Shown: piece by piece, positions 11,472-35,792 of the stretch
How the letters are laid out: the number at the start of each line of letters is the position of its first letter
Position numbering within the stretch: the stretch's first letter is position 1
NCBI GenBank assembly: GCA_023920165.1
Contig: CP089276.1
Coordinates: 1,426,001-1,490,000 of the forward strand
DNA from: Curvularia clavata
Taxonomy: Eukaryota
Direction of reading: 5' to 3'
Length of the DNA stretch: 64,000 bases
Notes under the pieces: generated by a model
The model's database searches: none
What the model was told of the DNA's origin: nothing
Seen by the model: only the letters and a program-made list of their open reading frames with translations
Program-made: the position numbers and the translations under genes

Positions 11472-12986
11472 ATGTCTATCATGGACGCCCACCAGTTTGG
11501 AGACCTGTCGCAAATGCAGGCGACGGAGGAGCAACGCTTTCCTCTATGGATGACAGCCCAAGATAACTACATGTATTCATACAAGCCGCATGTAGTCCAA
11601 TTCCCCTTGGAAGAAGAGACCTACTTTGACGACCTCGACAATGGCAGCATCAGCGTCCCACCGATGCAGCGCTTCATGAATGACTCATATCCATTCAGTC
11701 ACGGCATGCTACAAGCAAACATACCGTTGAACAGTCAGTACAGGGGACCCATGGAGCAGCAATGGAGCCCAGAAGACTGTTTCCGACAACCCTCGCCCGA
11801 CCGTTCGTCGTCTAGCAACACTAGCCAGAATACTCAAGATGAGCTGCGGTCTCCATACGTATTCCACGCTTCTATGTATACTAGCCCAATGGAGTACTCC
11901 CAGTCGTTGTTTTCATGCTCCTCAACAGAACAATTTCAGAGTGGACCGTTTCAATTCGACACTCCACCGTTTGGAAGTAACTGCACCACTCTTCGCGAAA
12001 TCGAGTACAACCCTGTATCAGAGGTAGTTGCGGAGGAACCTGAAGATGTCATTGTCAAAAAAGAGGTCGTCTCCAGCCACGAGCATGGAGCAATCCACAC
12101 CAGTGAGGCGCCCGAATACAGCACTTACGCAGACTCAGCAATCGGTCACTCCACACGCGTTGCTCAATCAGTCGAACCAGTCGAATTTGTTGAGGACCCT
12201 TCTTCAGACTCTGAGTACAGTCCGCCGTCTTATCGCTCTGGCAAGAGACGGCGGTCTACAGCATCGAGCAGCGGTTCAAGCCGTACATCGAAACGTCGCG
12301 GACATACTCGGAAAGATTCACACACTGCAAGTCCTACAACATCCACTAAGCCTGAGAAGAAATCCCGCCGGGGCTCGAGGGCCTCCCACAGCTCTGTTGA
12401 ACAGGCAGACCATCGTCGCCCTTTCCCATGCCCTCTCGCCGCATACGGCTGCAAGTCCGACTTCAGCTCCAAGAACGAGTGGAAGAGACACGTCAGCACA
12501 CAACACATCAAGCTCGCCTATTGGCGCTGTGACCTGTGTCCAGAAAGCGTAGACCCAAACGATAACAACGCTGAATACCACAACGACTTCAACCGCAAAG
12601 ACCTCTTCACCCAGCACCTTCGCCGTATGCACGCTATCCCCAAGGACAAGTCCTCTCACTCCGCCAAAGAGTTTCCCGTCACAGAGAGCAATCTCCCTGA
12701 GCACCAGGCTCGGTGCAACCGCTGGCTGCGCGACCCACCGCAGCACTCTAGCTGCCTCTTTTGCCATCGTACATTTGAAGGTGAGAATTCTTGGGAGGAG
12801 CGAATCGAGCATGTGGGCCGCCATCTCGAGAAAGACCATGAGAGTCGCGCAGAGATGCTTGACGTCACTACTTGGATCCTGGATGAGAGACTGGAGCAGT
12901 ATTTAGTTGAGGAGGGTCTTGTCGCGAGAGATGGCAGTGGTTGGAAGATTGGAGATGGCAATCCCTGCAGGGAGTCAGAGGAGTAG
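11472..12986 (+). CDS. C2H2 zinc-finger protein (504 aa)
   Basis: FPCPLAAYGCKSDFSSKNEWKRHVSTQH, WRCDLC...FNRKDLFTQHLRRMH and CLFC..WEERIEHVGRH fingers, plus a basic NLS-like tract. Probable 5'UTR intron ~11381-11434. Confidence 0.88.
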   Translation: MSIMDAHQFGDLSQMQATEEQRFPLWMTAQDNYMYSYKPHVVQFPLEEETYFDDLDNGSISVPPMQRFMNDSYPFSHGMLQANIPLNSQYRGPMEQQWSPEDCFRQPSPDRSSSSNTSQNTQDELRSPYVFHASMYTSPMEYSQSLFSCSSTEQFQSGPFQFDTPPFGSNCTTLREIEYNPVSEVVAEEPEDVIVKKEVVSSHEHGAIHTSEAPEYSTYADSAIGHSTRVAQSVEPVEFVEDPSSDSEYSPPSYRSGKRRRSTASSSGSSRTSKRRGHTRKDSHTASPTTSTKPEKKSRRGSRASHSSVEQADHRRPFPCPLAAYGCKSDFSSKNEWKRHVSTQHIKLAYWRCDLCPESVDPNDNNAEYHNDFNRKDLFTQHLRRMHAIPKDKSSHSAKEFPVTESNLPEHQARCNRWLRDPPQHSSCLFCHRTFEGENSWEERIEHVGRHLEKDHESRAEMLDVTTWILDERLEQYLVEEGLVARDGSGWKIGDGNPCRESEE

Positions 12987-13484
12987 TGAATGTCGAAGGG
13001 TGTTTTTTTTTTCTTGTTTTCTTCACTTGGTTTTCATTTTGGGCTTTTTATCAGGTTGTTACGAGTAGCCTTTGTCTGGTCTTTATCAGGAGGCTCAAGA
13101 TGTCTCGGATACACGGTCGCTATTGTTGGATACCCCCTTTTCGTTGCGTTTTGGATACGAATGGTGTTTATAGTTGAGCTTTGAATGGGTTTTCCTATGG
13201 ATTTTCTCTTATCTCTCATATTTTACGACCATAACGACTCTCCAGCTACTTCTACTTGGGTTTTCAGTGTACTTTCTAGCATACTCTTCATCGAAGCAGT
13301 TAAATTTCGGTTTCTGTCTAGCCTAACCAAGTGAGTGCCATCTCAGCGTCAGCCTTATTGCAGCAAACCTTCATAATTACGAAAGACATCAATCTTTGAC
13401 TGAGCTACCACCTTCTACTCTCTCTCTCTTTACCAAATCCCCAGTCTTCGTGCCTGCCTAGGTACTCCACCCACCTACCCTTTT

Positions 13485-14224
13485 CCCTCACCACATACAT
13501 CCACCCTAACTACCCCCACGCACCCGAATCCCACATACCCAGGCATAAAGAAAAGTGAAGCTGCGCCACGCATAAACGAGGTACGGCGCACCGAAGAAGC
13601 TTCATTTTCCCGTGCATAGTCCTGCCTTACCACTGCACCCGCTGCGCCACACCGCTGCGCCCCGCTACCCTTCTCCCCGCCCGCGTGAGCGCCTGCAGAG
13701 GAAGCATGGGACTTTTGTACTCCATACAACTTTCACTCGATGCTTGCCGTTGGAAACGGTGGTACTGACGTCGGCCCATGCATTCTGGAAAGAGGGCGAA
13801 GTTACATGGATATTGTTCCTGCACACACCAGGCTCCAGCGCAACGGTAAGGAAGTACAAAGCCCCCCCCCAAAAAAAAAGTCCTTGCACATGTGCAGGCA
13901 GACTTCTGCAGGACGTTTTGTGGGGAGAAGGAGCCCTGGTCGTGTTCCGGTGTACTGATGCAGGTTGCGTTGGCGGAAGGTTCCCCGGAAGGCAAATGTC
14001 TGCCTACTTTTTTGACGTTGGTGGGTTTTTTTTGCCTTGTGCTAGTCGCCTTGTTGCAACGTCAAAAGATTAGCTGGGTTTCAGGTGATGACCATGTTCC
14101 TGGGAATGTTGGGAATGGAGTTGCGGAAGCGATATGGAATCTCTGAGGAGTTGTTGGGACGCTGCGGCTGGTACAAGGTTAGAGCGTTTAGATGTGTGGT
14201 GTTGGGCTAAGGTATGTGTGAGGG
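13485..14224 (+). ncRNA. Candidate large structured non-coding RNA (unassigned)
   Basis: Many nested helices with the 5' and 3' ends paired and wobbles mostly G-U on the + strand. No credible ORF. Sits in a 2.4-kb gap between convergent genes. Confidence 0.4.
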
Positions 14225-15355
14225 ATATCGATTCGACGATTCGATCTTGCAGCACCATAGCGATCATGAGATTGAATTTTGGACGAACACGGTGTAGAGA
14301 TAGACTATATATACCAGGTGGTAGTTGGATCGCGATCTGCTTTGTCTCTAGAGTGCTTATATACCACTGGTGGAATTACAGAAGATGCGTATTAGTATAG
14401 TAATGCAAAACATGAAATTTAATACAAGTGATCATCTCGATCATTATTCTTTCGCAACTTCTTGTTTCCATTCGTGGTAGTTTGTTACGGGTATTACGGG
14501 GTTCTCATATTTCAAGTCTGACGCATCATGGTTCTTGCTGGTGATATCTCATTCAGAACTTCGATATCACTTACGCCTTCGTGGTCAATTCCTCTCAGGG
14601 TCCTGAACGCTCAAAGAAGAGTTTTCAAATCAGCCCAGAATGGAACGTCAGTTGATTGGGAGGATTAAACCCCCCCAGTGGCATGAATAGAATATGTGTT
14701 TCGCTGGCGCATCAAATCGGGATACAGACAGATACTACAATTCGAAACTGTCCTGTGCTACAAAAATCTCGATCCGCAAGATAGAAAAGCTACGTCTTGA
14801 TCTTTAAACCGATAGAAGCGCAAGTAAATAAGGAGGTGGAAGTACCACCATTGGCACGCAACACGGACCCTAAAGAAACCACTTTTGCTGAAACAGGCAC
14901 ATTAAGCAAAACTGTTAGCACGGAGCTTCGCCCGTCTATCTGGTTTATAGTGAGTTTATTTTCCACTGGAGTATGCCAGGGTGGGGGTTAGGATTTGTAG
15001 TGAATCCTTTCATATACCTTTGACTTCCCTGCCAAGAGAGAAAAGTAACAAGATGAATTCCCTACGTAGCAGTTGAATCGTGCCCCACGAACCCTACACA
15101 CGAAGAGCACCAAAAGTACCAAGAGCAGGAAAGGAACGGGGAGCGGCAGGATATGTATGGGCGAGTTCACCATATATACATTTTCTTTCCATCTATGTTA
15201 CATTTCTATATATGACAGGGTATTTTTTCTTATATATACCACTTTTGTTCCTCCGTTTCTCCTCCTCCAAAGGGAAAAGAAACGAGGCTATGTAATTTGC
15301 GGTTGCGTAGCTATGTAGGAGAGGCGAGGAAAGACAAGAGGAGAGAGTTGAGAAT

Positions 15356-17079
15356 TTACTCCTTCTTGGCAGCAGGTGTTTCTGCTTTGCCAGTGGGATC
15401 GTCCATTGTCCTCGCGCGGTCATCTTGTTCAGCGCGCTCGGCACTGCCGCCGGAGCTCTCGCCAGTGCTAGCCTCTGCTTCTTTGCTCTGCTCCTCAGCC
15501 TTGGCGTCCTGGGTCTCCTTTGCGGGCTTCTCGGCCTCATCAATGTCCTCATGGTCCTTGGGCGAAGCAGTAGCCTTGTTCTCAACGGTCTCAGTTTGTT
15601 CGTTTTCCTCGTTGATGAGTTCCTGCTGCTCCTTGAGGACTTCGAGACGCTGCTTGTTGGTAGCGGCGCCCTCGGCGTTGCGAACCTCTAGATCCATTTC
15701 GTGGTAGAGCTCTTCAGGAATACTGGACAGAACGGCTTCCAGAGCATCAATCTGAGACGTCATTTCCGACTCCTTGCCCTGGGCGTAGACAAAGGCATTG
15801 GAGAGGACCAAGAGAGTTGAAGGAACACCATGCTTGAGACGGAGGTCAAGCCAACTGGTGAGGTCGTCCCGTAACCTGCCGGGAGAAACACCATAGGTTC
15901 GGATACCACGGCTTGCACAAGCAGTCTGGAGCTCGGGCACGGAAAGCGAGTCAACACCCTCGTAGGCAATGGCTCTGTCGTCACGCTTGATCTGACGCAT
16001 GCGCACCCGAATCTGGTAGCGTAGGAAGTTGTCGGTACCAAAGGACGTGATGTTCATGTATCGGCAAATGGAGACAAGTTGAGGACGGGACAAGTTGTCA
16101 AGAGTCAGGTCATCCTTGAAGATCTTGCAGACCTTGATAATCTCCTCTGGTGTTGGCTTCTCGCCAGTTGTGCGCACCTTGCGGAAAAACTCGCCGAATT
16201 CGGCAGTCTGGGCGTTTTCAGGAGACACCGGCAAACCGGTTTCCTTGAGCGTCTGGCGAAGGAAGTCGCTAACGTCCTTACGGGTCGCTCGCAGCGTCTG
16301 AGCCTTGGTGTCCTTTGCTGATTGGCCCTCGTATGTGCTGGGGAGCATGTTGGGGAACAGCTTGAGCGCTACGGGAAGAAGCAATTCCGCAAACGGCACG
16401 ATGACGAAAGGCAGGAAAGGAACCAAACGGGCGAGATCCTGCACTGTGCGTTGGAGCTGGATCAGGTTAGCGTTTGGAGGTTGAACTGGTTCTGGCAGAA
16501 AAAGGAACATACCTGTCGACGCTCTCGTCGAGTGAGCTCATAGCCAGCAGCCATCTTCAAGGCGAGCTTGGAGCTGATCTTGATCTCGAAGCCAAGCAGC
16601 TTGGTTCCATCCCAGTAGTGAACCAACTCCTTCTTGACTTTTTGCCAGACGGTGAGCTTCTTCTTGTCCTCGTCCTTCTTTGCCATGATCTTCTTCTCTT
16701 CCTTAGTCTCGGCTGCTTCCTTGTCTGCTGCCAACTCCCTAATTGTCTGAACATCCTGAGCCGGTGTCTTTGGGTGTGCGGTTGGGCCGGATTTGGGAAT
16801 GATGGTGCCCTTTTCAAGTTGTAGCTTTGCTTGTTGTGGGGCCTTGTCCTGGTCCTGCCTGGAGAGTGGTTGGCTTGCTTTTTTGGGGTCGAAGCCAGGG
16901 GGTGGGTAGTTCTGTGCCGGGTTGGATGACGTCGACTCGGTCTGTAGGGCTCGGAGTGGGATGAGGATGCGAATTGCAGGCGAAGTCCTCAGCATGGGGC
17001 GATGGGTGCGGGTGCTTGTCCTGATGCCTGCTCTGAAGACTGCGGGCGCTGCCCGTGAGGCATTTCTGGTGGCGTACAT
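15356..17079 (-). CDS. MDM38: LETM1/Mdm38-family mitochondrial inner membrane protein, 2 exons
   Basis: Arg/Ala-rich presequence [71 protein letters not shown]. Intron 16457-16512. Confidence 0.92.
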
Positions 17080-33430: not shown

Positions 33431-34350
33431 GGTAGCGCGTAGGAGAGGATAACGACGAACAGACGAAAAATGGTGTTGGACAATAACACGAACAACGAAA
33501 AATAACGAAAAAAAACTCCGCGGCCAAAGTTTCAAGTTAATAACCGCATCCATGAAGCTCACTGCATGCACATAGTCACCTACCTAGCCGGGCGTTCGAG
33601 CTCAGATACTGGCACGCCTAATCTGTACTCCCTATAACGCCCGTCTTAACCCACCAGTCACATCACGCCACCAGCCTGCCCTTTTTAGGCGACCTGCTAA
33701 GAACCGCGCTTAGAGGATTCTGCATACATGTGCATTACCGATCTGCCGCAATATAACGCTAAAAGGCGGAAAATGCAGATTGACAGGGGCCGCGGTCTGC
33801 GGGTCGTGATTGCATGGTCGTTGCGTGCATTTCCCAGCAGTCGCAATTAGTACTAGAGATTCTTGCCCAATATACGTACTAATTAGCAAATTCTACATAT
33901 TTTAAAGAACTTATTATTTTTAGTATTTTGTAGACTATTATAGTAATAAATAGCGATACAAACGCGCTGTTCAATGGATAGAAACCGGTTAGAGGGTAAT
34001 ATTGATAGGTTTGCCGGAATAGTGACCAAATTCACGAGATTAGGGTACATATAGACTGCAGTGAGTCGTTCTACTGCCTTACACTACGTGCCCTTATCAT
34101 AACTATAGTTTATTGAGTGTAGAGTCTACCGCCTGTTATTAGGCGCCTAATAAGGTAGTTGTTTTTATTCTGTGACTTAGTTCTATCTAGACTAGTACTA
34201 ACTTTCTGGAACAAGGACTGTAAGGTCTTTAGTGTCTAAGGTCTAGAGCCTAAGATCTTGCGTCTGTATCTCTACTTAGATAGTGTCCTTCACTTTGATT
34301 TTTTTGATGTTTGGTGGGTTGAGGGGCGGCCTGCCGCTTTTTTATGTAAT

Positions 34351-34603
34351 TGTCAGGACCTGGCCCAAACTGGACCATTTCAGTCCAAATTCCTCCCGTC
34401 CTAGCACGATTAGTCAGCTAGGGCCTTCTTAGAACTATAAAGTTCTAGTCATCACTAGAGATGCTCGATAGCGGTTCGTCTCGTGAATATATGGCTGTTA
34501 ACGCATAGTCCTCTCCCATTCATCTCGTGCTGTACCATCATTCTACTACCAGTCTAAAAGTAATATACATTTCGGGCTAATCGCCGCAGACGAGCCACTT
34601 ATA
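34351..34603. mobile_element. Possible solo LTR (RIP-mutated)
   Basis: ~250-bp block starting TGTCA and ending ...CTTATA (possibly RIP-mutated CA) with an internal TATAAA. No clean target-site duplication and no partner copy seen. Confidence 0.3.
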
Positions 34604-35101
34604 GGAAATAAATGAATAAACGCGCTGTTATTAAGTCTCTGTTCTTAGATTCTAACCCTAAAAGCTAGAGGATTACTCTTGACGAGTTTGCCAATACAGT
34701 AGTTGGTACTCTATTGAGAAAAACCAAAAAAAAGAGCGAAGCATCTTTTACACTATTTTGATTATATTGCGCCTGTTTCATTCTATACTTGATTTATAAT
34801 AGGAATACTATACTTTAAAATATTGCCAAAAGATGTGTTTTTTTCTCTATAAAAGATTTGCATTTTATTATAGATCTCTAACCCTGCGATATAAGGAAGT
34901 TTTAATGTCCTTAGTGATTAGCAGTGAATTTGGTGGGCTATAAGCCGTTTCGTGGCCCTGATTATGTTTTTCAGCATAGTAGTTGGGTACGAATAGCACT
35001 TGCGGACTGGGACGTCCTTTGTCGTTGTTGAGTGGGGTGCATGCACCAAGTTCTCAAGTATGAGACCTACCTCACGCAGTGCAAGTAGACGAGCAGAGAA
35101 A

Positions 35102-35350
35102 GAAGAAGAAGAAGAAGAAGAAGAAGAAGAAGAAGAAGAAGACGCAACAACGCATTTAAGGTAAAACATGTAGCTTAAGCAACAACTAAGTTACTATTCA
35201 AATAGCTTGTCAAGTCTACAGTCTAGCAGCGAAAACCAAGGAGAGAGTAAAAAGAGCGTAAAAAGAAAGTAAGAAAAGAAGGTAAAGAGAAGGTAAAGAG
35301 AAGGTAAAGAGAAGGTAAAGTCAAGTAAAGTCAAGTAAAGTCAAGTAAAG
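35102..35350. repeat. (GAA)13 microsatellite plus minisatellites (AGAAGGTAAAG)x4 and (TCAAGTAAAG)x3
   Basis: Located at 35102-35140, 35277-35320 and 35321-35350 respectively. Confidence 0.92.
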
Positions 35351-35447
35351 AGGTAAGATAGTAGAGCAAAAGAGATGTAGGTAGCAGCCAAATTAGTTTA
35401 TAGATAGCAGCTGAGTCATACTTTCGGGCTTGTGACTTTACATCGAG

Positions 35448-35792
35448 CTACGACCTGTCTCCTGGTTCCATGGGCATGCCATGAACATCAAGCCCCATAA
35501 CATTTGCCATGTTCTCGATGATCTCCAGGATTTTAGAAACGTCGGTGGCATGTTCAATCCCGGTTTCGCTCAACTCCAAAGCACACTTGAGGCTGCTAAG
35601 CAGCGTTAAAATGTGCCGGAAGCCGTCGCTTATAGCACACTTGTCGACCTCGAGTGTGGTTGCCCTTGCCAGGGACATGTCGGCATTGTCTTGCTCAGCC
35701 TCCTGGGAGGCTTTGGACTTTGCAGCTCGAGTCGCTGCTGTGATGTCGGACATATCAAAGTCGCGGTCCCTGTCGGGGTCTGGGTTAGTCAT
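35448..35792 (-). CDS. Small uncharacterised ORF (114 aa) in the TE island, with a truncated tandem paralog at 35930-36025
   Basis: Open and not RIP-like inside a RIP-rich region. Shares FDMSDITAA and upstream leader sequence with the 31-aa copy. Confidence 0.45.
   Translation of the reverse strand: MTNPDPDRDRDFDMSDITAATRAAKSKASQEAEQDNADMSLARATTLEVDKCAISDGFRHILTLLSSLKCALELSETGIEHATDVSKILEIIENMANVMGLDVHGMPMEPGDRS

What the first reader, a model, noticed from the sequence alone, without database searches (positions are those of the whole stretch)
13485..14283. ~740-nt extensively self-pairing non-coding segment: candidate unannotated large structured RNA
Seen, nested helices: ccctcaccacatac 13485-98 / gtatgtgtgaggg 14212-24; tcccacatacccagg 13529-43 / cctgggaatgttggga 14099-114; aaagtgaagct/agcttcatttt enclosing tgcgcc/ggcgca (13552-13608); ccttctccccgc 13669-80 / gtggggagaagg 13920-31; cctgcagagg 13692-701 / cttctgcagg 13903-12; ggactttt 13709-16 / aaaagtcc 13876-83; cttgccgttg 13743-52 / caacggtaag 13841-50; ttttgacgttg 14010-20 / caacgtcaaaa 14057-67. 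The last could pseudoknot with cctac 14003-07 / gtggg 14021-25 across a U-run. Most non-Watson-Crick pairs are G-U on the + strand, which favours RNA-level selection over a DNA foldback. There is a CT-rich tract upstream (~13410-13430), an Sm-site-like AATTTTGG at 14275-14282, and the segment lies in an oversized gap between convergent genes. Inference: a Pol II structured RNA. Telomerase RNA is one hypothesis (ACCCTAAC at 13503-13510, pseudoknot, Sm-like site), but the TAACCCTAA template and CR4/5 I would expect are not recognisable. I saw no U1-U6, U3, RNase P/MRP or SRP signatures, so it may be a new RNA.
Basis: partly seen in the sequence, partly recalled or inferred. Interest (0 to 1): 0.7.

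Follow-up and report, generated by a model that had tools for sequence, protein, structure and literature searches.

The report
Fungal non-coding transcript, fold unremarkable
This stretch between two fungal genes appears to be copied into a low-level non-coding RNA, but its many drawable helices are no better than chance and it lacks the hallmarks of telomerase RNA, so it is most likely an ordinary long non-coding transcript.

Summary
Pairing is not above chance. The minimum-free-energy (MFE) z-score is -0.46 on the + strand and -1.19 on the - strand. It is -1.53 when the composition profile is kept, with 6 of 60 shuffles as good. No 120-nt window inside the finding falls below -1.6. The two halves are not a decayed inverted repeat. 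A relative about 3% diverged has 9 substitutions in the helices: 5 break pairs, 4 are wobble-tolerated, 0 are compensated. Divergence matches the neighbouring spacer, 2.75% against 2.78%.

Contigs from three studies cover 13517-14353, and adapter orientation points to the + strand. The stretch looks non-coding, and frame-breaking indels occur in relatives.

Telomerase RNA (TER) is unlikely:
- The ACCCTAAC motif occurs at chance frequency.
- There is no P6.1 or three-way-junction motif.
- No splice-site processing signal follows the Sm-like site, which is predicted to be base-paired.
- Rfam gives no hit.
- The covered RNA is about 0.85 kb.

Best reading: an ordinary fungal long non-coding transcript, or a 3' extension of the upstream C2H2 (zinc-finger) gene's mRNA.

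The parts
13411..13431 (+). CT-rich tract (ccttctactctctctctctt), a possible core-promoter element upstream of the transcript. Its length varies in a relative.
   Evidence: Sequence read. Run X1 has a CTCT insertion after 13417. The promoter role is an inference from recalled knowledge of filamentous-fungal promoters.
13503..13510 (+). ACCCTAAC, a telomere-template-like 8-mer. It lies 7 nt upstream of the first covered base, 13517.
   Evidence: 2 matches in the window against 1.24 expected. All six permutations give 11 8-mers against 11.7 expected, and a better 10-mer lies at 34652.
13517..13706 (+). Run X15 contig (190 nt) over the 5' part of the segment.
   Evidence: table 8, record 12, 1 difference.
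13751..14353 (+). Run X15 contig (603 nt laid) with sequencing-adapter letters at both ends. Its adapter layout matches that at the + strand gene's end and is opposite to that at the - strand gene's end.
   Evidence: tables 7 and 8 (record 13; loose ends at 13751 and 14353, compared with 13221 and 15160). Contigs from X13 (13897-14047, 14044-14194) and X9 (14184-14335) lie inside it.
13552..13608 (+). Local hairpin (aaagtgaagct/agcttcatttt enclosing gcgcc/ggcgc).
   Evidence: -19.4 kcal/mol, z -2.25, 3 of 200 shuffles as good. It was picked post hoc.
14003..14067 (+).
   Evidence: (z -2.00, 8 of 200). In X1, 14060 C>T keeps the pair as G-U.
14228..14286 (+). Local hairpin that base-pairs the Sm-like AATTTTGG (14275-14282).
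   Evidence: z -2.36, 3 of 200. In one search this is the only Sm-like match, and no 5' splice site follows it.
14306..14313 (+). TATATATA, about 40 nt before the contig end at 14353. It is a possible 3'-end efficiency element of the yeast UAUAUA type.
   Evidence: Sequence read. The role is recalled knowledge and was not tested.

Best explanation
The segment is the body of a low-level, unspliced, non-coding RNA polymerase II transcript on the + strand, covering at least 13517-14353 (about 0.85 kb). It lies in the spacer between a C2H2 zinc-finger gene and the MDM38/LETM1 gene of an ascomycete. It most likely starts just downstream of the CT-rich tract at 13411-13431 and ends near 14353, about 40 nt after a TATATATA element.

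The many long-range helices are a by-product of composition. The 5' half is C-rich and the 3' half is G-rich (GC skew -0.48 to +0.47), so the two halves can always be drawn as paired. The fold is not under detectable selection.

Any function is more likely to lie in the act of transcription in a convergent-gene spacer than in a defined RNA shape, and the RNA may have no function at all. One possibility is that the G-rich, positive-skew 3' half helps polymerase pause and terminate before the converging MDM38 unit.

Shown: the helices exist, there is no energy excess, there is no covariation, there is no coding signal, and RNA-library contigs lie on the segment. Inferred: the strand, the transcript ends, the promoter, independence from the C2H2 mRNA, and any role.
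For: RNA cover.
- Contigs of X15 (13517-13706, 13751-14353), of X13 (on record as a metatranscriptome; 13897-14047, 14044-14194) and of X9 (14184-14335) lie on the segment. They come from three studies.
- In X15 the stretch falls into separate records with depths 133, 4.9, 13.7 and 188. This fits an RNA library rather than DNA of one genome (inference).

Strand.
- The X15 adapter layout at 13751 and 14353 equals that at the + gene's end (13221; X9 shows the same at 13279) and is the reverse of that at the - gene's end (15160) (table 7).
- The adapter identities are recalled, not taken from a call.

No splicing. No joint appears in the segment in 4 of 4 runs laid (table 5).

Non-coding.
- 0 of 13 stop-to-stop frames of 45 aa or more hit Pfam at E<=0.1.
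- The 165-aa frame has no homologue at E<=0.01.
- X1 carries +5 nt at 13850-13859 and -1 at 14026, and X15 carries -1 at 13862 and -1 at 14026. In X1, 13741 T>C removes the ATG of the 72-aa ORF.

Fold not special..

No constraint.
- X1 divergence is 23 of 837 nt (2.75%) in the covered RNA, against 6 of 216 (2.78%) in the adjacent spacer and 0 of 287 in the end of the coding sequence.
- The longest substitution-free run in the finding (119 nt) is below the roughly 139 nt expected by chance.

Composition. A GC island of 51-61% sits against flanks of about 40-45%, and the skew reverses across it.
Against: - All runs were laid as assembled contigs, so true starts, ends, strand and level are not measured. 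X13 and X15 could carry some DNA.
- X1's contig runs unbroken from upstream of the C2H2 start codon through to 14409 (record 1). The RNA could therefore be a 3' extension of that mRNA rather than a unit of its own.
- The comparative test rests mainly on X1, only about 3% diverged, so its power to detect covariation is low.
- Three local hairpins are mildly better than shuffles.
- A GC island in AT-richer spacer still lacks a firm explanation.
Confidence: 0.5

Rival explanations
1. The segment is the distal part of a long 3'-UTR or read-through isoform of the upstream C2H2 mRNA. On this reading there are alternative ends at about 13221-13300 and about 14353, and the segment is not a separate gene.
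For: - It lies on the same inferred strand as the C2H2 gene.
- X1 record 1 (3129 nt) bridges from about 1.4 kb before 12700, that is upstream of the ATG at 11472, straight through to 14409.
- An mRNA-embedded functional RNA has a precedent in the U. maydis telomerase RNA, which is cut from the 3'-UTR of the Emi1 mRNA (PMC9564094, abstract read).
Against: - A contig that spans two units does not show a single molecule; the tool itself gives this caveat.
- X15 and X9 carry adapter-marked ends of the C2H2 contig at 13221 and 13279.
- A CT-rich, promoter-like tract sits between the two.
Confidence: 0.24
2. The segment is the telomerase RNA. ACCCTAAC would be the template, helix 13485-98/14212-24 the boundary or core-enclosing helix, and the U-rich hairpin at 14003-14067 the pseudoknot.
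For: - An 8-nt match to the TTAGGG template lies 4 nt after a long-range helix.
- Runs of U6 and U8 plus A4 lie around a hairpin, loosely resembling the paper's CS3/CS4 pseudoknot sequences, which form U-A.U base triples.
- The RNA is non-coding and covered by contigs from RNA-type libraries.
Against: - The motif is at chance frequency: 2 found against 1.24 expected, and 11 against 11.7 for all permutations, with a better 10-mer elsewhere.
- It is 8 nt with a 2-nt terminal repeat. N. crassa has a 9-nt template and the Aspergilli have 3-6-nt repeats.
- It lies upstream of the first covered base, 13517.
- No + strand hairpin of 4 bp with an NUNGN loop lies within 13400-14353. The scan found 3 hits in 13200-15350 on both strands, none there.
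- The Aspergillus junction motif gives 0 matches at up to 3 mismatches.
- No AUAAGU-type 5' splice site or branch point follows the Sm-like site, and that site is predicted paired.
- Rfam gives 0 matches at E<=10.
- About 0.85 kb is covered, against the 2,049 and 2,425 nt the paper gives for two TERs.
- In X1, 13497 A>C breaks the proposed enclosing helix.
- The prior that one 64-kb window holds the single TER gene is low.
Confidence: 0.04
3. The segment is a new structured non-coding RNA whose long-range nested helices are functional.
For: The helices exist and are nested and roughly collinear. Three local hairpins reach z of about -2 to -2.4. The MFE contains 55 pairs that span more than 300 nt.
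Against: - There is no energy excess.
- 9 of 25 X1 substitutions fall in the helices, against about 6.3 expected from 201 of 799 positions. Of these, 5 break a pair and 0 are compensated.
- For MFE pairs, 8 are kept, 7 are broken and 0 are compensated.
- There is no sequence constraint.
- No homologous sequence lies next to LETM1 in 20 of 20 metagenomic loci.
Confidence: 0.06
4. The segment is a decayed DNA foldback, MITE (miniature inverted-repeat transposable element) or inverted-repeat relic that happens to be transcribed.
For: Composition is dyad-symmetric, and the helix offsets are roughly constant.
Against: - The left arm against the reverse complement of the right arm gives a local score of 23 against 19.3 +/- 2.0, with 20 of 300 shuffles as good. 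The global score is 16 against 13.2 +/- 3.6, with 66 of 300 as good.
- There is no second copy in the 64-kb window.
Confidence: 0.03
5. The segment is an unannotated small protein-coding gene, possibly spliced.
For: GC content is exon-like. ORFs of 72-165 codons are present. A hypothetical spliced frame contains a hydrophobic stretch.
Against: - No Pfam match and no homologues.
- Frame-breaking indels and a lost start codon occur in relatives.
- No splice joints appear in contigs.
- The five X1 substitutions in 13899-14150 avoid the third codon position of that frame (my count).
Confidence: 0.04

Closest known systems
Long intergenic non-coding RNAs of filamentous ascomycetes (review PMC12566771; seen only as a search listing with the start of its abstract)
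   Same: More than 200 nt, intergenic, no conserved ORF, likely Pol II with a polyadenylation-like 3' context, no constraint detectable against a close relative, and no match in more distant relatives.
   Different: Cap, poly(A) tail, true ends and any phenotype are untested here. Independence from the neighbouring mRNA is not shown.
Pezizomycotina telomerase RNA (N. crassa 2049 nt, Qi et al. PMC3592445, sections read; Aspergillus TERs, Kuprys et al. PMC3603654, sections and supplement S1 read)
   Same: A non-coding RNA with a CCCUAA-containing motif near its 5' side, a long-range helix that could enclose a core, and U-runs next to a hairpin.
   Different: No P6/P6.1 junction, no 3' splice-site processing signal, an 8-nt motif at chance frequency, less than half the length the paper gives for two of these TERs, and no Rfam hit.
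U. maydis telomerase RNA processed from the 3'-UTR of the Emi1 mRNA (PMC9564094, abstract read)
   Same: A non-coding RNA lying downstream of a protein-coding gene on the same strand, possibly within a longer precursor.
   Different: That case is a basidiomycete with a different host gene, and here none of the telomerase core domains was found.

Membership tests
Pezizomycotina telomerase RNA | A template complementary to more than one telomere repeat, with terminal alignment repeats (9 nt in N. crassa; 3-6-nt repeats in Aspergilli) | tested here: inconclusive
   ACCCTAAC is 8 nt with a 2-nt terminal repeat. Its frequency is at chance. The organism's telomere repeat is unknown. The motif lies 7 nt upstream of the first covered base.
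Pezizomycotina telomerase RNA | P6/P6.1 three-way junction: a 4-bp P6.1 stem with a 5-nt NUNGN loop, highly conserved across the subphylum | tested here: not met
   The scan of 13200-15350 on both strands gave 3 hits, none on the + strand within 13400-14353. The Aspergillus consensus block gave 0 matches at up to 3 mismatches in the whole window. The Pezizomycotina-wide consensus (Qi supplement) could not be read.
Pezizomycotina telomerase RNA | Pseudoknot with U-A.U base triples (a U-rich CS3 followed by an A-run CS4) | tested here: inconclusive
   U6, U8 and A4 surround the hairpin at 14010-14067, and a 5-bp alternative pairing exists. The arrangement is not the canonical H-type with a U-rich loop 1 over an A-U-rich stem 2. 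There is no covariation data.
Pezizomycotina telomerase RNA | 3' end made by spliceosomal cleavage: a U-rich site followed at once by a 5' splice site (AUAAGU in Aspergilli) and a branch point | tested here: not met
   In 13200-15350 the only AU-first hexamers of the kinds searched are at 14692 and 15151 (both ATATGT). GTATGT at 14212 lies upstream of the Sm-like site at 14276, not after it. No branch point follows.
Pezizomycotina telomerase RNA | Detectable sequence or structure homology to known TERs | tested here: not met
   Rfam 15 gives 0 matches at gathering score and 0 at E<=10 in 12800-15400. That Rfam holds an ascomycete TER model is recalled and could not be verified. Reference TER sequences could not be fed to the tools.
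Pezizomycotina telomerase RNA | Length in the kilobase range (the paper gives 2,049 and 2,425 nt for two TERs) | tested here: inconclusive
   Contigs cover 13517-14353, about 0.85 kb. True ends are unknown because only contigs were laid.
Sm-class RNA (snRNA-like) | A single-stranded Sm site, AU4-6GR, near the 3' end | tested here: not met
   AATTTTGG is present but is base-paired in the local MFE and centroid hairpin at 14228-14286. It lies about 70 nt before the contig end.
Foldback / MITE relic | Arms alignable as an inverted repeat; many copies | tested here: not met
   The arm alignment is not better than shuffles. There is no second copy in the window. Genome-wide copy number could not be tested.
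Fungal long intergenic non-coding RNA | Transcribed, more than 200 nt, intergenic, no coding potential | tested here: met
   Contigs from an RNA-labelled run and two runs I judge to be RNA, three studies in all, lie on the segment. There are no protein hits and the frames are broken in relatives. Independence from the C2H2 mRNA is not shown.

The most novel reading that the evidence does not exclude
The segment is a compact, non-canonical RNA with a real long-range clamp. One version is a telomerase RNA that has lost the P6/P6.1 junction and is released from the 3' extension of the C2H2 mRNA. The other is a new structured RNA class whose selection is invisible at only 3% divergence.
Probability: 0.05. 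Interest if true: 0.75.

Novelty: new member of a known kind. Interest (0 to 1): 0.2.

Why it matters
This is mainly a cautionary result. In a sequence whose two halves have complementary base composition, a reader can always draw an impressive set of nested helices, and an 8-nt telomere-like word turns up by chance about a dozen times in 64 kb. The real content is modest: one more probable fungal intergenic non-coding transcript, sitting in a convergent-gene spacer. Only if the 5% reading were true, a minimal or mRNA-derived ascomycete telomerase RNA or a new structured RNA, would it matter for telomerase evolution.

Tried and rejected
- **Whole genome:** none is held, so copy number and a search for a canonical TER elsewhere were impossible.
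- **Earlier notes of this scan:** none for this genome or this sequence.
- **Syntenic relatives:**
  - A metagenome scan with the LETM1 piece gave 20 loci at 53-98% protein identity.
  - Only the LETM1 coding sequence aligns to the window. None of the 20 loci has a C2H2 homologue or similarity to 13300-14500 better than E 0.84. No covariation set could be built.
  - Telomere-like 8-mers in five of these loci (L001, L005, L016, L017, L019) numbered 2, both in L019, a chance level.
- **Parts without cover:** no contig of X15, X9 or X13 lies on about 13301-13516 or 14354-15159. With contigs this proves nothing, and I do not use it as evidence for separate units.
- **Runs not laid:** Their small shares say nothing.
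- **Intron ideas:** 13331-13542 (GTGAGT...CTAAC...CAG), 13846-13898 and 14212-14251. No contig shows any such joint.
- **X1's 162-nt skip at 14617-14780:** its ends are AG..AA, so it is an indel and not an intron.
- **snoRNA or other known RNA:** no Rfam match. C/D-like words seen by eye had no terminal stem.
- **tRNA:** none.
- **ENE-like (expression and nuclear retention element) U-rich clamp:** considered and rejected, because no lower stem flanks the two U-runs.
- **Qi et al. supplement:** unreadable.
- **Check that Rfam holds an ascomycete TER family:** failed.

Full report
**Setting**

The window is fungal. No prokaryote-type genome is held for it. The upstream 504-aa ORF (11472-12986, +) clusters with ascomycete C2H2-type proteins. 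The downstream ORF (15356-16510, -) is a LETM1/MDM38 protein: PF07766, E 1.8e-87. The two genes converge on a 2.37-kb gap. Inside it, 13400-14300 is a GC island of 51-61% against flanks of about 40-45%. Its GC skew swings from -0.48 to +0.47, so the + strand is C-rich in the 5' half and G-rich in the 3' half.

**Checking the observation**

Written out, 100 of 101 pairs are canonical, 5 of them G-U.
- The CT tract (13411-13431), ACCCTAAC (13503-13510) and AATTTTGG (14275-14282) are all present.
- Pairing is not more than chance.
  - The 799-nt segment folds to -275.9 kcal/mol against -272 +/- 8.5 for dinucleotide shuffles, z -0.46, with 6 of 20 as good.
  - The opposite strand gives z -1.19.
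  - Ordinary shuffles destroy the C-to-G profile, so I also shuffled four blocks separately: z -1.53, with 6 of 60 as good.
  - No 120-nt window inside the finding is below z -1.6 on either strand.
- The three best hairpins, with boundaries chosen after looking, reach only z -2.0 to -2.4.
- The two halves are not a decayed inverted repeat. Aligning the left arm to the reverse complement of the right arm gives a local score of 23 against 19.3 +/- 2.0 (20 of 300 shuffles as good), and a global score of 16 against 13.2 +/- 3.6 (66 of 300).
- The helices are therefore real but are what complementary composition gives.
- The G-U argument is circular, since the helices were picked on the + strand with G-U allowed.

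**Comparative evidence**

Run X1, a relative about 3% diverged, is laid across the whole segment.

From 201 of 799 positions, 6.3 would be expected. Four are tolerated as wobble pairs, 5 break a pair and none is compensated.
- For the MFE structure, 15 substitutions fall at paired positions: 8 kept, 7 broken, 0 compensated.
- Divergence is 2.75% in the covered RNA, 2.78% in the adjacent spacer, 1.91% in the C2H2 3'-UTR and 0% in the last 287 nt of the C2H2 coding sequence.
- The longest substitution-free run in the finding (119 nt) is below the chance expectation of about 139 nt.
- The power is low, because this rests mainly on one close relative. What signal there is points against selection on the fold or the sequence.
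- More distant relatives could not be used. Twenty metagenomic loci encoding LETM1 relatives share only the coding sequence with the window, and none carries the C2H2 gene or anything like the segment.

**Is it transcribed?**

One run search and one lay were allowed, and all four runs were held as contigs.

- X15 has contigs on 13517-13706 and 13751-14353. These are separate records from those on the C2H2 3' end (to 13221) and on the MDM38 3' end (from 15160).
- X13, on record as a metatranscriptome, has 13897-14047 and 14044-14194.
- X9, identical to the window where laid, has 14184-14335.
- These are three studies.
- X15's records have four different depths, which fits an RNA library (inference).
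- Adapter letters remain at several X15 contig ends.
  - The layout at 13751 and 14353 equals that at the + gene's end (13221; also X9 at 13279) and is the mirror of that at the - gene's end (15160).
  - If the library is stranded, the RNA is on the + strand.
  - This rests on recalled adapter sequences and four junctions, so it is an inference.
- No splice joint lies in the segment in any of the 4 runs.
- X1's contig runs from upstream of the C2H2 start through to 14409. A 3' extension of that mRNA therefore cannot be excluded.
- Contigs cannot fix starts, ends or levels.

**Coding potential**

- None of 13 stop-to-stop frames of 45 aa or more hits Pfam at E<=0.1.
- The longest frame (165 aa, with no ATG until near its end) has no homologue at E<=0.01.
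- X1 has +5 nt within 13850-13859 and -1 at 14026. X15 has -1 at 13862 and -1 at 14026.
- In X1, 13741 T>C destroys the start codon of the 72-aa ORF.
- I take the segment as non-coding.

**Telomerase RNA (TER)**

I read the N. crassa paper (PMC3592445; results sections and passages) and the Aspergillus paper (PMC3603654; sections 21-24, passages and supplement S1 part 3). I then tested the defining features.

- **Template.**
  - ACCCTAAC occurs twice in the window against 1.24 expected.
  - Counting all six permutations on both strands gives 11 8-mers against 11.7 expected, and a better 10-mer (CTAACCCTAA) lies at 34652.
  - The motif is shorter than the 9-nt N. crassa template. It has a 2-nt terminal repeat where the Aspergilli have 3-6 nt.
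- **Three-way junction.**
  - No + strand hairpin of 4 bp with an NUNGN loop lies within 13400-14353.
  - The conserved Aspergillus junction block has no match at up to 3 mismatches anywhere in the window.
- **3' processing.**
  - No AUAAGU-type 5' splice site or branch point follows the Sm-like site.
  - The only strong 5' splice-site word nearby (GTATGT, 14212) lies before it.
  - The Sm-like site is predicted to be base-paired.
- **Homology.**
  - Rfam gives nothing, even at E<=10.
  - That Rfam contains an ascomycete TER model is my recollection. I could not verify it.
- **Length.** About 0.85 kb is covered, against 2,049 and 2,425 nt for the two TERs whose lengths I read.
- **Pseudoknot.**
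  - U6, U8 and A4 surround the hairpin at 14010-14067, and a 5-bp alternative pairing exists.
  - The arrangement is not the canonical one and cannot be tested without homologues.

I put telomerase RNA at about 4%.

**Conclusion**

- The most likely reading is an ordinary, low-level, unspliced long non-coding transcript from the + strand of a convergent-gene spacer. The helices come from its composition.
- A 3'-extended isoform of the C2H2 mRNA is the main rival.
- A role in keeping the convergent units apart is a speculation I could not test. On this idea, the G-rich, positive-skew 3' half would favour pausing and termination before MDM38.
- The finding is of low interest, apart from the small residual chance of a non-canonical telomerase RNA or a new structured RNA.

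Noticed in passing
window 14362-14479: A strong imperfect hairpin or inverted repeat lies just downstream of the RNA contig end at 14353. Sliding-window z is -4.6 (+) and -3.6 (-). The 141-nt fold gives z -3.14, with 0 of 200 shuffles as good. Both X1 contigs end at its centre (14409 and about 14410). It is the only significantly stable local structure in the whole gap.
   Followed up: partly
window 34652-34661 (+), within the ORF-poor, AT-rich stretch 33553-35448: CTAACCCTAA is a better telomere-template-like word than the one in the finding, and a second CTAACCCT lies at 34878. Rfam at E<=10 gave nothing relevant there (weak TeloSII_ncR30 and snoTBR5 matches, far below gathering score). A 10-mer is expected about 0.7 times per window by chance.
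   Followed up: partly
window 14618-14779: A 162-nt stretch of the spacer is absent from relative X1, replaced by a single C. The ends are AG..AA, so it is an indel and not an intron.
   Followed up: no
window 13850-13879: A hypervariable C9/A9 homopolymer region: X1 has 8 substitutions and 4 small insertions there, and X15 has a 1-nt deletion. At 14026 the T8 run is one T longer in the window than in X1, X15 and X13. This may be a window-specific change or a homopolymer assembly error.
   Followed up: no
L001, L005 and L019, about 880-1085 nt downstream of the LETM1 stop: A block of about 111 nt is conserved at 89-93% among three metagenomic relatives whose surrounding spacer is only 68-76% alike. 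It is not a tRNA and is not present in the window's gap.
   Followed up: partly
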